The translations under genes were made by a program, and so were the position numbers. Under the pieces are notes generated by a model. The model did not search any database. It saw only the letters and a program-made list of their open reading frames with translations, and was not told where the DNA came from. From the NCBI RefSeq assembly GCF_003019035.1, contig NZ_CP027447.1: a stretch of 64,000 nt of DNA; one strand, given 5' to 3'. Of the stretch, positions 60,444 to 63,850 are shown in pieces. Every line of letters starts with the position of its first letter. Within the stretch, counting starts at the first letter, position 1. The stretch comes from Escherichia coli (GTDB taxonomy: Bacteria > Pseudomonadota > Gammaproteobacteria > Enterobacterales > Enterobacteriaceae).

Positions 60444-63019
60444 CGTCCACCTCCGGAGAACAGGCCACCATCACGCATCTGTGTCTGAATTTCATCACGG
60501 GCACCCTTGCGGGCCATGTCATACACCGCCTTCAGAGCAGCCGGACCTATCTGCCCGTTCGTGCCGTCGTTGTTAATCACCACATGGTTATTCTGCTCAA
60601 ACGTCCCGGACGCCTGCGACCGGCTGTCAGCCAGACTGCCCGGTGTACCGACATAACCACCGGTGGCATAGCCGCGCATCAGCCGGTAGAGATTCCCCAC
60701 GCCAATCCGGCTGGTTGCCTCCTTCGTGAAGACAAATTCACCACGGTGAACAATCCCCGCTGGCTCATATTTGCCGCCGGTTCCCGTAAATCCTCCGGTT
60801 GCAAAATGGAATTTCGCCGCAGCGGCCTGAATGGCTGTACCGCCTGATGCGGATGCGCCGCCACCAACAGCCCCGCCAATGGCGCTGCCGATACTCCCGA
60901 CAATCCCCACCATTGCCTGCTTAAGCAGAATTTCTGTCATCATGGACAGCACGGAACGGGTGAAGCTGCGCCAGTTCTGCTCACTGCCGGTCAGCATCGC
61001 TGCCATATTCTGTGCAATACCATCAAAGGTCTGCGTGGCTGCACTTTTTACCTGCGACATACTGTCCGTGGCGCTCTCTTCCCACTCACTCCAGCCGGAC
61101 TTCAGGCCTGCCATCCAGCTCCCGCGAAGCTGGTCTTCAGCCGCCCAGGTCTTTTTCTGCTCTGACATGACGTTATTCAGCGCCAGCGGATTATCGCCAT
61201 ACTGTTCCTTCAGGCGCTGTTCCGTGGCTTCCCGTTCTGCCTGCCGGTCAGTCAGCCCCCGGCTTTTCGCATCAATGGCGGCCCGTTTTGCCCGTTGCTG
61301 CTGTGCGAATTTATCCGCCTGCTGCGCCAGCGCGTTCAGGCGCTCCTGATACGTAACCTTGTCGCCAAGTGCAGCCAGCTGGCGTTTGTACTCCAGCGTC
61401 TCATCTTTATGCGCCAGCAGGGATTTCTCCTGTGCAGACAGCTGGCGACGTTGCGCCGCCTCCTCCAGTACCGCGAACTGACTCTCCGCCTTCCACAAAT
61501 CCCGGCGCTGCTGGCTGATTTTCTCATTTGCTCCGGCATGCTTCTCCAGCGTCCGGAGTTCTGCCTGAAGCGTCAGCAGGGCAGCATGAGCACTGTCTTC
61601 CTGTCGATCGCCTGCAGACACTTTCACGCCGGACTGCTTCGGCTTTTTCAGCGTCGCTTCATAATCCTTTTTCGCTGCCGCCATCAGCGTGTTGTAATCT
61701 GCCTGCAGGATTTTCCCGTCTTTCAGTGCCTTATTCAGTTCTTCCTGACGGGCGGTATATTTCTCCAGCGGCGTCTGCAGGCGTTCGTAAGCCTTCTGCG
61801 CCTCTTCGGTATATTTCAGCCGTGATGCCTCAGACTCGGCCCAGTCCTTTGCTGCCATCTCTCTGGCCTTTTCAAGATCGGCCTGCAACGTGGCGGCTGA
61901 AAGCCCAAGTTGCGCATTCGCTCTGTCCTCCCATGCTCCCCGGAGATTGGCAAGAAATGCGGATGTTTTACCGCGCCGGTGGCTCCGGCTCTGATACCAC
62001 TGCCATTTTTTGTCCGCCTCATCAAAAGCCTTTTCTGCTTTCTCCAGCATTTCCCGGGCAGTGTCCGGGCGACCAATATCCAGCACCGAATCCCACATGG
62101 ATTTGAATGCCCGTGCTGTCCTGTCTGCCCAGGTCTCCAGCGTGCCCATGTTCTCTTTCAGGCGGCGGGTCTGGTCATCAAACCCTTTCGTTGCGGCCTC
62201 GTTCGCCGCCTGCAATGCCCCGGCTTCATCTCCGGAACGCTGCAACTGAGCAACATACGCAATCTGCTCCGCCGTCACGTTATGGAACTGACGTGCCATC
62301 GCTGTCAGTCCCGACGTCGGGTCTGTGGTCAGCTTCCCGAAGGCTTCAGCGACCTTGTCCACCTCCACGCCGGATGCAGAGGAGAAACGCGCCACACTCT
62401 GGCTGATCGCCTCAAACTGCTCACCACCACGCACACCGGCATTCACCAGCGCCGTCAGTGACTCGCTGGTCTGGTTAAACGTCAGCCCTGCCGCCTGCCC
62501 GGCTCTGGACAGGGCCAGAATACGATCTGCCGTCAGTCCCGCCTGATTGCCGGAAAGGACCAGCGTTTTGTTGAAATCGGACAGGGTTGAGTTGCCCTGA
62601 TACCAGGCATACGCCAGCGCACCGGTCGCCACCGCCAGCGAGGTGGCCCCCACCATCGGCAGGGTGATCGCACCGGCAAGCCCCCTGAACATGGGGATCA
62701 TCCCGCCGAAGGAGTCCTTAACCTGACCACCCTGTTGCAGCAGGATCAGCCACGGACTTTGCCCGCCTGCAAGCTGCGTGGCCACGTCGGTGAACTGTGC
62801 AGGCAGCATACGCATGGCGGCTTTGTACTGCCCGACGGAAATCCCCGCTTTCTGTGCAGCCAGCGCCTGTCGGCTCAGCGACTGTTCAACGACTGCCGCT
62901 GTTTTTTTCGCATCACTTTCCGTACCGGAAAAATGACGCCTGACTCTGGCCATCTGCTCGTCAAATCTGGCCGCATCCAGACTCAAATCAACGACCAGAT
63001 CGCCTACCGGTTCAGCCAT
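60440..63019 (-). CDS. H: Tail tape-measure protein H (859 aa)
   Basis: MAEPVGDLVVDLSLDAARFDEQMARVRRHF… recognised as lambda H; coiled-coil rich. Confidence 0.9.
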   Translation of the reverse strand: MAEPVGDLVVDLSLDAARFDEQMARVRRHFSGTESDAKKTAAVVEQSLSRQALAAQKAGISVGQYKAAMRMLPAQFTDVATQLAGGQSPWLILLQQGGQVKDSFGGMIPMFRGLAGAITLPMVGATSLAVATGALAYAWYQGNSTLSDFNKTLVLSGNQAGLTADRILALSRAGQAAGLTFNQTSESLTALVNAGVRGGEQFEAISQSVARFSSASGVEVDKVAEAFGKLTTDPTSGLTAMARQFHNVTAEQIAYVAQLQRSGDEAGALQAANEAATKGFDDQTRRLKENMGTLETWADRTARAFKSMWDSVLDIGRPDTAREMLEKAEKAFDEADKKWQWYQSRSHRRGKTSAFLANLRGAWEDRANAQLGLSAATLQADLEKAREMAAKDWAESEASRLKYTEEAQKAYERLQTPLEKYTARQEELNKALKDGKILQADYNTLMAAAKKDYEATLKKPKQSGVKVSAGDRQEDSAHAALLTLQAELRTLEKHAGANEKISQQRRDLWKAESQFAVLEEAAQRRQLSAQEKSLLAHKDETLEYKRQLAALGDKVTYQERLNALAQQADKFAQQQRAKRAAIDAKSRGLTDRQAEREATEQRLKEQYGDNPLALNNVMSEQKKTWAAEDQLRGSWMAGLKSGWSEWEESATDSMSQVKSAATQTFDGIAQNMAAMLTGSEQNWRSFTRSVLSMMTEILLKQAMVGIVGSIGSAIGGAVGGGASASGGTAIQAAAAKFHFATGGFTGTGGKYEPAGIVHRGEFVFTKEATSRIGVGNLYRLMRGYATGGYVGTPGSLADSRSQASGTFEQNNHVVINNDGTNGQIGPAALKAVYDMARKGARDEIQTQMRDGGLFSGGGR

Positions 63020-63446
63020 ACCGGACTCCTCCCGCGATCCCTTCTGATACTGTCATCAGCATTACGTCATCCTCCGTCATGTCCGCCACATCCGGGGAAG
63101 CGGGGATAACTTCATTCCCGTCCGGGCCAAAACGAACGCCTCCGGCAAGCCCTGCCGCTTTCTGCATCAGCACATCATCTTCAGGCTCTTCGTCAGCCTC
63201 GCGCCGGTTCAGCAGACTGAAATCCAGCGGATGCATATCCGGATCGCTGAAAAACAGGCTGAGCACGGTGTACGTCAGCCCGGAAAAGTGCATATCCAGC
63301 AGAACATCATGAAAATAATGGGTACTGTAAAAGCGGTGCCAGTCGGCATACTCCGTGGATGACATCCCGGCAAGCATGGCGCGCCAGTCGGGTCGCCCCA
63401 TCTCACGCGCCAGTTTCAGGGCAAAACTCAGCTCACCGTCGAACAC
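63012..63446 (-). CDS. T: Tail assembly chaperone T frame, expressed as the G-T fusion by -1 frameshift
   Basis: ORF in the -1 frame relative to G, overlapping the G 3' end. Confidence 0.85.
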   Translation of the reverse strand: MFDGELSFALKLAREMGRPDWRAMLAGMSSTEYADWHRFYSTHYFHDVLLDMHFSGLTYTVLSLFFSDPDMHPLDFSLLNRREADEEPEDDVLMQKAAGLAGGVRFGPDGNEVIPASPDVADMTEDDVMLMTVSEGIAGGVRYG

Positions 63447-63850
63447 TTTCCCGCAGAAACAGGCTCTGCAGGCCCGGCGTCCTCTGCCTGTTCAGGAGCA
63501 TCATTCACCACAAACTCAGACATACCGGACAGCCGGTACACCACGTTTTCAGCATGAGAAATTGCCTCTGTGGGCCAGGTGGTAAGCACTTCCTGCTCAA
63601 TCTGTTTAACGGCTTCATTCATGGACGGCATCTGCGTCTTCTGCGGATGGTTATGCCACAGGGACATCGCCACCAGAAACGCGCCGGTTCTGATGGCGTC
63701 TTCCACAGTAAACTTCCGGTTGCTGTCTGACTCCGCCTGTTCTGCCTGCCGTTTCATCAGGGCGAGATGCTCAATGCGCTGCAGGGCTGACAGTTCAGAA
63801 AGCGTGACGGTCACACCGTTATGTTCAAATGATTCGGTTTTCAGGAACAT
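63428..63850 (-). CDS. G: Tail assembly chaperone G
   Basis: 140 aa MFLKTESFEHNGVTVTLSELSALQRIEHLALMKRQ… recognised as lambda G. Confidence 0.9.
   Translation of the reverse strand: MFLKTESFEHNGVTVTLSELSALQRIEHLALMKRQAEQAESDSNRKFTVEDAIRTGAFLVAMSLWHNHPQKTQMPSMNEAVKQIEQEVLTTWPTEAISHAENVVYRLSGMSEFVVNDAPEQAEDAGPAEPVSAGKCSTVS
63446..63452 (-). other. Programmed -1 ribosomal frameshift slippery heptamer GGGAAAG (G to G-T)
   Basis: Plus-strand CTTTCCC at 63446-63452 is GGGAAAG on the coding strand, located in the G/T overlap. Confidence 0.7.

What the first reader, a model, noticed from the sequence alone, without database searches (positions are those of the whole stretch)
63012..63850. Conserved G/T programmed -1 frameshift in the tail chaperone pair
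The slippery heptamer GGGAAAG lies at 63446-63452 on the coding strand in the G/T overlap, as in lambda, so the fixed-ratio G to G-T translation mechanism is retained. It is a useful marker that the tail assembly module is functional rather than decayed.
Basis: partly seen in the sequence, partly recalled or inferred. Interest (0 to 1): 0.2.

Follow-up and report, generated by a model that had tools for sequence, protein, structure and literature searches.

The report
Lambda G/T tail-chaperone frameshift site
This is the well-known phage lambda G/G-T tail-chaperone frameshift site, sitting intact in a lambda-like prophage of an E. coli chromosome; it is real but entirely ordinary and is present in about two thirds of sequenced E. 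coli genomes.

Summary
On the minus strand, GGGAAAG lies at 63452..63446. The G reading frame (63850..63428, 140 aa) reads it as G GGA AAG, five codons before the G stop. The -1 frame is open from the heptamer for 146 codons to the T stop at 63012-63014. This predicts a 279-aa G-T fusion.

The 839-nt region differs from lambda G/T (9711-10549) by 12 substitutions and no indels. T is identical in protein; G differs at 3 residues. The heptamer alone is not significant (6 copies in the window, 7.4 expected). Its position and register are: it is the only in-register slippery heptamer in a real gene of the window with a long -1 extension. It is also invariant, in the same register, in 76 of 77 relatives down to 70% identity.

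The mechanism is inferred from lambda: about 4% -1 slippage, giving gpG:gpGT of about 30:1, with both acting as tape-measure chaperones. It was not measured here.

Three related copies with a broken G or T still keep the heptamer.

The same region occurs in 3709 of 5426 complete E. coli genomes. Verdict: already known, low interest.

The parts
63428..63850 (-). Gene G: tail assembly chaperone (tape-measure chaperone), 140 aa, zero-frame product
   Evidence: ORF. Pfam PF06894 Phage_TAC_2, E 1.9e-60. 137 of 140 residues identical to lambda gpG; the differences are S111Y, D117N, A122T. PHROG 42.
63857..63862 (-). Shine-Dalgarno-like GGAGAG, 6 nt upstream of the G ATG
   Evidence: Read directly from the sequence...TAATCCGGAGAGTCAGCG|ATG. 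Function inferred.
63446..63452 (-). Slippery heptamer G GGA AAG (X XXY YYZ in the G frame), the site of the -1 shift
   Evidence: Identical to the lambda site G_GGA_AAG (PMC7618472; PMC3296357 Table 1). Invariant in 59 distinct related G-T sequences.
63012..63452 (-). -1 frame from the heptamer to the stop codon (146 sense codons, then TGA): the T domain. RefSeq annotates it as a separate CDS 'T' starting at GTG 63446.
   Evidence: One search shows no stop in this frame. Pfam PF06223 Phage_tail_T, E 2.2e-14. 144 of 144 residues identical to lambda T.
63012..63850 (-). Predicted G-T fusion product (gpGT), 279 aa, junction ...PVSAGK-VFDGELSF...
   Evidence: Built. PHROG 32165, a 290-position profile, matches G at profile positions 1-142 and T at 137-285, so it is a family whose profile spans both G and T, as expected if its members are annotated G-T fusions.
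63866..64000 (-). 3' end of the major tail protein gene V, cut by the end of the window
   Evidence: tblastn: lambda V residues 203-246, 100% identical. V is intact in the GF131 record, which is 100% identical over 49000-64000.
60440..63019 (-). Gene H: tape-measure protein, 859 aa. Its ATG overlaps the end of T by 8 nt, as in lambda.
   Evidence: Pfam TMP_2 and Tape_meas_lam_C. 92% identical to lambda H, with a net 6-aa gain.
63368..63438 (-). Predicted RNA structure starting 7 nt after the heptamer. Listed only as examined; not supported as a functional element.
   Evidence: Fold -38.4 kcal/mol, z = -2.08, 6 of 200 shuffles as good. Across 19 variants there are no compensatory double changes, only one-sided changes and some broken pairs.

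Best explanation
The region holds the G and T genes of a lambda-like prophage tail module, on the minus strand, expressed as in phage lambda.

Most ribosomes translate G in the zero frame and stop at 63430-63428, making the 140-aa chaperone gpG. A small fraction (about 4% in lambda) slip back one base while the Gly and Lys tRNAs sit on GGA AAG. They re-pair on GGG AAA and then read GTG TTC ... in the -1 frame to the stop at 63014-63012. This makes a 279-aa gpG-T fusion.

By analogy with lambda, the G part of both proteins coats the tape-measure protein H. The T part of the rare fusion recruits the major tail protein V, so that the tail tube polymerises around H. Neither protein ends up in the virion.

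Shown here: the sequence anatomy, near-identity to lambda, and conservation of the site. Inferred: that slippage occurs, its rate, and the chaperone roles.
For: - Heptamer position, register and open -1 frame.
- 98.6% nucleotide identity to lambda 9711-10549 with no indels. T protein identical, G differs at 3 residues, and the 90 nt around the site differ at 1 base.
- Pfam Phage_TAC_2 and Phage_tail_T. PHROG 32165 spans both halves as one protein.
- Position between V and H, with the H start overlapping the T stop as in lambda.
- In 80 related viral loci at 70-99% G identity, 76 of 77 complete G ORFs carry GGGAAAG in register exactly 5 codons before the stop, followed by a -1 ORF that is 141-154 codons in nearly all loci not cut by the contig end (two have a shorter or interrupted T).
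- The heptamer is invariant in 59 distinct sequences. G codons 131-140 have the lowest synonymous variation of the gene (0.004, other bins 0.03-0.16).
- It is the only such configuration in a real gene of the window.
- The lambda mechanism, the 30:1 ratio and the protein roles come from PMC5009743, PMC3296357 and PMC7618472, citing Levin 1993 and Xu 2004, 2013, 2014.
Against: - Nothing in the sequence argues against it.
- No expression data exist for this prophage. The frameshift rate and the existence of the fusion are transferred from lambda, not measured.
- Whether the prophage is inducible is unknown. The window ends inside V, and the rest of the prophage was seen only in a record identical over 49000-64000.
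- RefSeq annotates T as a separate CDS starting at GTG.
Confidence: 0.93

Rival explanations
1. T is translated on its own from the GTG at 63446-63444, as the RefSeq annotation draws it. G and T would then be two separate proteins and the heptamer would be incidental.
For: PGAP annotates T as a separate 144-aa CDS beginning at this GTG, both in GF131 and in lambda RefSeq. The G-rich GGGA lies just upstream of the GTG.
Against: - The only SD-like bases are the heptamer itself, ending 3 nt before the GTG, which is too close for normal initiation (inference).
- In lambda the T sequence is described only as part of the frameshift product gpGT (PMC5009743, PMC3296357).
- A heptamer that is invariant, in register and at a fixed distance from the G stop across relatives down to 70% identity is not explained by an independent start.
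- PHROG 32165 models G plus T as one protein.
Confidence: 0.03
2. The site is intact only because the module was acquired recently. The prophage is cryptic and silent, so no gpGT is made in this host and the heptamer says nothing about function.
For: - The prophage sits at the Qin site, with ydfJ truncated. Qin is a defective prophage in K-12 (my own knowledge).
- The tail fibre assembly gene is a remnant.
- Broken relatives keep the heptamer.
- 98.6% identity to lambda leaves little time for decay.
Against: - All essential tail genes in the window are full length and colinear with lambda.
- In the GF131 record, which is identical over 49000-64000, integrase, excisionase, repressor/cro, Q-like antiterminator, lysis, terminase, portal and head genes are all annotated as intact.
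- All 5 substitutions in T relative to lambda are synonymous.
- This rival concerns whether the site is used, not what it is. If the operon is transcribed, the slip would still occur.
Confidence: 0.15
3. The fusion arises by transcriptional slippage of RNA polymerase on the A run, not by ribosomal slippage.
For: None here, apart from the presence of AAA in the heptamer.
Against: The homopolymer run is only 3 A (preceded by 3 G). Known transcriptional slippage sites need much longer A/T runs (established knowledge; review PMC5009743). In lambda the ratio responds to tRNA-Lys modification, which points to the ribosome (PMC3296357).
Confidence: 0.01

Closest known systems
Bacteriophage lambda genes G and T (gpG / gpGT) with the programmed -1 ribosomal frameshift at G GGA AAG (Levin, Hendrix and Casjens 1993; Xu, Hendrix and Duda 2004, 2013, 2014)
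   Same: - Same genes, same order (V-G-T-H), same lengths (140 aa; 144-aa T ORF).
- Same heptamer in the same register, same distance to the G stop, same T/H overlap.
- 98.6% nucleotide identity; T protein identical.
   Different: - 12 substitutions, giving three amino-acid changes in the C-terminal third of G (S111Y, D117N, A122T).
- The copy lies in a prophage at the E. coli Qin site rather than in lambda itself.
- The neighbouring H is 859 aa rather than 853.
Escherichia phage mEp332 and phage 434 G/T regions
   Same: Closest phage records: 99.3% and 98.9% identity over all 839 nt, with the same annotation (tail component G, T, tape measure H).
   Different: A handful of substitutions. Nothing structural.
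The general 'G-T type' tail assembly chaperone frameshift of long-tailed dsDNA phages (Xu et al. 2004)
   Same: Two overlapping ORFs between the major tail gene and the tape-measure gene, joined by a low-efficiency frameshift at a slippery heptamer (PMC5009743).
   Different: In most other phages the proteins are unrelated in sequence and the heptamers differ. Here both are the lambda originals.

Membership tests
Lambda-type G/GT tail assembly chaperone pair with programmed -1 frameshift | Two overlapping ORFs located between the major tail protein gene and the tape-measure gene | tested here: met
   The V 3' end lies at 63866-64000, G at 63428-63850, T at 63012-63446 and H at 60440-63019, all on the minus strand.
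Lambda-type G/GT tail assembly chaperone pair with programmed -1 frameshift | [quoted passage not shown] | tested here: met
   G GGA AAG lies at 63452..63446, five codons before the G stop.
Lambda-type G/GT tail assembly chaperone pair with programmed -1 frameshift | The -1 frame is open from the heptamer through the whole downstream ORF | tested here: met
   There are 146 codons without a stop, ending at TGA 63014-63012.
Lambda-type G/GT tail assembly chaperone pair with programmed -1 frameshift | Sequence homology to gpG (PF06894) and gpT (PF06223) | tested here: met
   E-values are 1.9e-60 and 2.2e-14, both above the Pfam cut-offs. Amino-acid identity to lambda is 97.9% for G and 100% for T.
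Lambda-type G/GT tail assembly chaperone pair with programmed -1 frameshift | The slippery site is conserved in position and register among diverged relatives | tested here: met
   76 of 77 complete G homologues (70-99% identity) keep it; the one exception has a broken G. The heptamer is invariant in 59 distinct sequences, and synonymous variation is lowest in the overlap.
Lambda-type G/GT tail assembly chaperone pair with programmed -1 frameshift | The downstream ORF has no translation start of its own | tested here: inconclusive
   A GTG follows the heptamer directly, and the only SD-like bases (GGGA) end 3 nt before it. Sequence alone cannot exclude weak initiation. For lambda only the fusion is described (PMC5009743).
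Lambda-type G/GT tail assembly chaperone pair with programmed -1 frameshift | A fusion protein is actually made at a low, set fraction of G (about 1:30) | not testable with these tools
   This needs an immunoblot, mass spectrometry or a reporter assay. The value is taken from lambda (PMC5009743, PMC3296357).
-1 PRF sites with a downstream stimulatory RNA structure (stem-loop or pseudoknot) | A stable, conserved structure 5-9 nt after the heptamer, supported by covariation | tested here: inconclusive
   A fold starts 7 nt downstream, but z is only -2.08 and the 19 variants show no compensatory changes. The region varies too little to decide.

The most novel reading that the evidence does not exclude
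The predicted RNA structure beginning 7 nt after the heptamer (63438..63368) might be a conserved stimulator that tunes the G:GT ratio. No stimulatory element for the lambda site came up in the papers read here. The unusually low variability of region positions 391-450 would then reflect RNA constraint as well as protein constraint.
Probability: 0.07. Interest if true: 0.25.

Novelty: already known. Interest (0 to 1): 0.05.

Why it matters
It matters little. The site is the textbook lambda G/GT frameshift, in a copy almost identical to lambda's, and the same region is present in 3709 of 5426 complete E. coli genomes.

Two practical points follow:
- RefSeq annotation here, and in lambda's own RefSeq record, still lists G and T as separate CDSs with no ribosomal-slippage join. 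Automated proteomes therefore miss the 279-aa gpGT.
- The heptamer should not be used on its own as a sign that a prophage tail module is intact, because broken copies keep it.

Tried and rejected
- **Chance test of the bare motif.** There are 6 copies against 7.4 expected, so the motif by itself carries no information. The argument rests on register and context.
- **Downstream stimulatory structure.** The fold has z = -2.08 and shows no compensatory changes in 19 variants. It is not supported, but it is not excluded, because the region varies too little.
- **Rfam scan of the whole window.** It found nothing at the site; the only hit is the STnc560 sRNA at 39988-40201.
- **Reading Xu et al. 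2013 (PMC3762263).** I wanted the primary data on the ratio, but the paper is not held. Reviews and Maynard 2012 were used instead.
- **Identifying the source genome, to see the rest of the prophage.** Window 1-20000 is 100% identical to strain SCU-301, and 49000-64000 is 100% identical to strain GF131. Each strain differs elsewhere. The source strain is therefore not in the collection, and the context beyond 64000 is borrowed from GF131.
- **Transcriptional slippage.** Considered and rejected: the run is only three A.
- **Independent initiation of T.** Considered and given low weight.
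Full report
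**What is in the sequence**

The genes here run on the minus strand.
- An ORF of 140 aa runs from ATG 63850 to TGA 63428-63430.
- An overlapping ORF in the -1 frame runs to TGA 63012-63014.
- The + strand at 63446-63452 reads CTTTCCC, which is GGGAAAG on the coding strand.
- Base 63452 is the third base of a codon in the first ORF. The zero frame therefore reads gcG GGA AAG tgt tcg acg gtg agc TGA: the X XXY YYZ arrangement, five sense codons before the stop.
- Translating from 63452 in the -1 frame gives GKVFDGELSF... for 146 codons without a stop.

A slip at this site predicts a 279-aa fusion with the junction ...PVSAGK-VFDGELSF.... The -1 frame is closed upstream of region position 360 (window 63491), so only the last 64 nt of G can serve as a shift window. 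GGGAAAG is the only slippery heptamer in register there.

**Is it more than chance?**

The bare heptamer is not: there are 6 copies in the window against 7.37 +/- 2.77 expected. The configuration is.
- Among all mechanical ORFs of at least 100 aa on both strands, 67 in-register X XXY YYZ heptamers exist.
- Only three have a -1 frame open for at least 60 codons.
- Two of these lie in spurious ORFs antisense to the tail genes K and L. The third is this site.
- None of the other GGGAAAG copies that lie in an ORF of at least 60 aa is in the slippery register.

**What it is**

- The 839 nt match 143 phage records. Lambda itself (J02459 / NC_001416, 9711-10549, genes G and T) is 98.6% identical over the full length, and phage mEp332 is 99.3% identical.
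- Base by base against lambda there are 12 substitutions and no indels.
- T is identical in protein; all 5 of its substitutions are synonymous. G differs at S111Y, D117N and A122T.
- The 90 nt around the heptamer differ at a single base, 18 nt upstream.
- Pfam gives Phage_TAC_2 (lambda tail assembly chaperone G, E 1.9e-60) for the first ORF and Phage_tail_T (2.2e-14) for the second. The next gene downstream is a tape-measure protein (TMP_2 plus Tape_meas_lam_C).
- PHROG 32165 is a 290-position profile. It matches G at profile positions 1-142 and T at 137-285, so it is a family whose profile spans both G and T, as expected if its members are annotated G-T fusions.
- Upstream lie the last 44 residues of the major tail protein V, 100% identical to lambda and cut by the window end. 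The H start overlaps the T stop by 8 nt, as in lambda.

**Comparative test**

A scan of viral contigs with the G protein returned 80 loci at 70-99% G identity.
- Of 77 loci with a complete G ORF, 76 carry GGGAAAG in the X XXY YYZ register, always exactly five codons before the G stop.
- In nearly all loci not cut by the contig end, a -1 ORF of 141-154 codons follows; L009 and L026 have a shorter or interrupted T.
- In an alignment of 59 distinct G-T sequences the heptamer is invariant.
- The stretch at region positions 391-450 is among the least variable of the region (column entropy 0.07-0.11 against a mean of 0.27). It lies directly after one of the most variable stretches (positions 331-390, 0.36-0.57).
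- Synonymous variation in G is lowest in codons 131-140, the overlap zone (0.004; other bins range from 0.03 to 0.16).

This is what dual coding plus a required slip site predicts.

**How it most likely works**

This part is inferred from lambda.
- About 96% of ribosomes stay in frame and make gpG. The rest slip -1 on G GGA AAG and make gpGT (PMC3296357; PMC7618472).
- The molar ratio of about 30:1 is needed for tail assembly.
- The G part of both proteins binds the tape-measure protein gpH. [quoted passage not shown]
- Neither protein is in the finished virion (PMC5009743, citing Levin 1993 and Xu 2013, 2014).
- The ratio is set, not fixed: loss of tRNA-Lys U34 thiolation raises frameshifting and lowers phage yield (PMC3296357).

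None of this was measured for this copy. With an identical T, a nearly identical G and the same local sequence, there is no reason to expect a difference.

**Downstream RNA structure**

- The 93 nt from the heptamer fold to -38.4 kcal/mol, with a helix starting 7 nt after the heptamer. The z-score is only -2.08, and 6 of 200 shuffles fold as well.
- Across 19 distinct variants of this stretch there are one-sided changes and a few broken pairs, but no compensatory double change.
- I treat the structure as unsupported. The region varies too little to exclude it.

**Context, and the 'functional module' claim**

- The window is E. coli chromosome. Positions 49000-64000 are 100% identical to strain GF131 (NZ_CP172134.1).
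- There the prophage occupies the Qin site. It runs from a truncated ydfJ to an integrase next to rspB, about 45 kb.
- The GF131 record annotates integrase, excisionase, repressor/cro, a Q-like antiterminator, lysis genes, terminase, portal, head genes and Z-U-V-G-T-H-M-L-K-I-J as intact. It also has lom, a tail fibre gene, a truncated tail fibre assembly gene and pinQ.
- Within the window, lambda G, T, H, M, L, K, I and J all align full length and colinearly.

So the tail module does look intact, but that conclusion comes from the ORFs, not from the heptamer. Three related copies show the heptamer is not a discriminating marker, because all three keep GGGAAAG:
- L009: homology in T ends after about 67 residues.
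- L064: a 4-nt insertion breaks G.
- The SCU-301 prophage: a 2-nt deletion in G, and many structural genes annotated as frameshifted, which could be assembly error.

**How common it is**

The 839-nt region is found in 3709 of 5426 complete E. coli genomes, at 8198 places, with a median of two per genome that has any.

**Comparison and verdict**

This is the lambda G/GT frameshift itself, not merely something like it.
- Every sequence-level defining feature was tested and met.
- The absence of an independent T start is inconclusive from sequence.
- The actual production of gpGT cannot be tested with these tools.

Novelty: already known. Interest: low. The reader's score of 0.2 was, if anything, generous.

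Noticed in passing
window 47785-64000: The tail genes belong to a lambda-like prophage inserted at the E. coli Qin site. ydfJ is truncated at 47785-49068, followed by ynfT, ydfK and pinQ at 50404-50994. In the GF131 record, which is identical over 49000-64000, the prophage is about 45 kb with a full set of head, tail, lysis and integration genes. From my own knowledge, the K-12 Qin remnant lacks the structural genes.
   Followed up: partly
window 1-20000 versus 49000-64000: The window's source strain is not in the complete-genome collection. Positions 1-20000 are 100% identical to strain SCU-301, whose prophage is only about 95.5% identical and has many indels. Positions 49000-64000 are 100% identical to strain GF131, whose flanking chromosome is 98.9% identical and does not match window 1-3054. 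The prophage tail module and the chromosomal backbone therefore have different closest relatives.
   Followed up: partly
window 60440-63019 (-): The tape-measure protein H is 859 aa against 853 in lambda. 58 of the 72 differing alignment columns, and all the gaps, fall in alignment columns 300-400, which looks like a replaced segment with a net gain of 6 aa. The rest of the protein is nearly identical.
   Followed up: partly
window 51095-58082 (-): The host-range end of the tail module is mosaic relative to lambda. J is 83.8% identical with 29 gap positions. Lom is only 44% identical. The side tail fibre matches lambda Stf mainly in its first 110 residues (with weak similarity at residues 239-336). 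The tail fibre assembly gene is a 36-aa remnant (51095-51202) next to the pinQ invertase.
   Followed up: partly
L009, L064 (IMG/VR loci); NZ_CP051751.1 2467294-2468130: Related G-T copies with an interrupted T (L009), a 4-nt insertion in G (L064) or a 2-nt deletion in G (SCU-301) all still carry GGGAAAG. The heptamer outlives the genes it serves. The many 'frameshifted' genes in the SCU-301 prophage could be assembly errors.
   Followed up: yes
window 63012-63850; NZ_CP172134.1 2264795-2265633; NC_001416.1 9711-10549: The RefSeq annotation lists G and T as two separate CDSs, with T starting at the GTG that directly follows the heptamer and no ribosomal-slippage join. The 279-aa gpGT is therefore absent from the derived proteomes.
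   Followed up: partly
window 39988-40201 (-): The only Rfam hit in the window is the full-length STnc560 Hfq-binding sRNA (281.9 bits), between dgcZ and mgtS. It overlaps the small ORF annotated as mgtT in the GF131 record.
   Followed up: no
window 3183-8603 (-): A 1806-aa ORF is annotated in related records as an ECSE_1600 family autotransporter. Just upstream of it, window 1-3054 has no counterpart at this position in GF131. In SCU-301 the matching stretch includes hipA.
   Followed up: no
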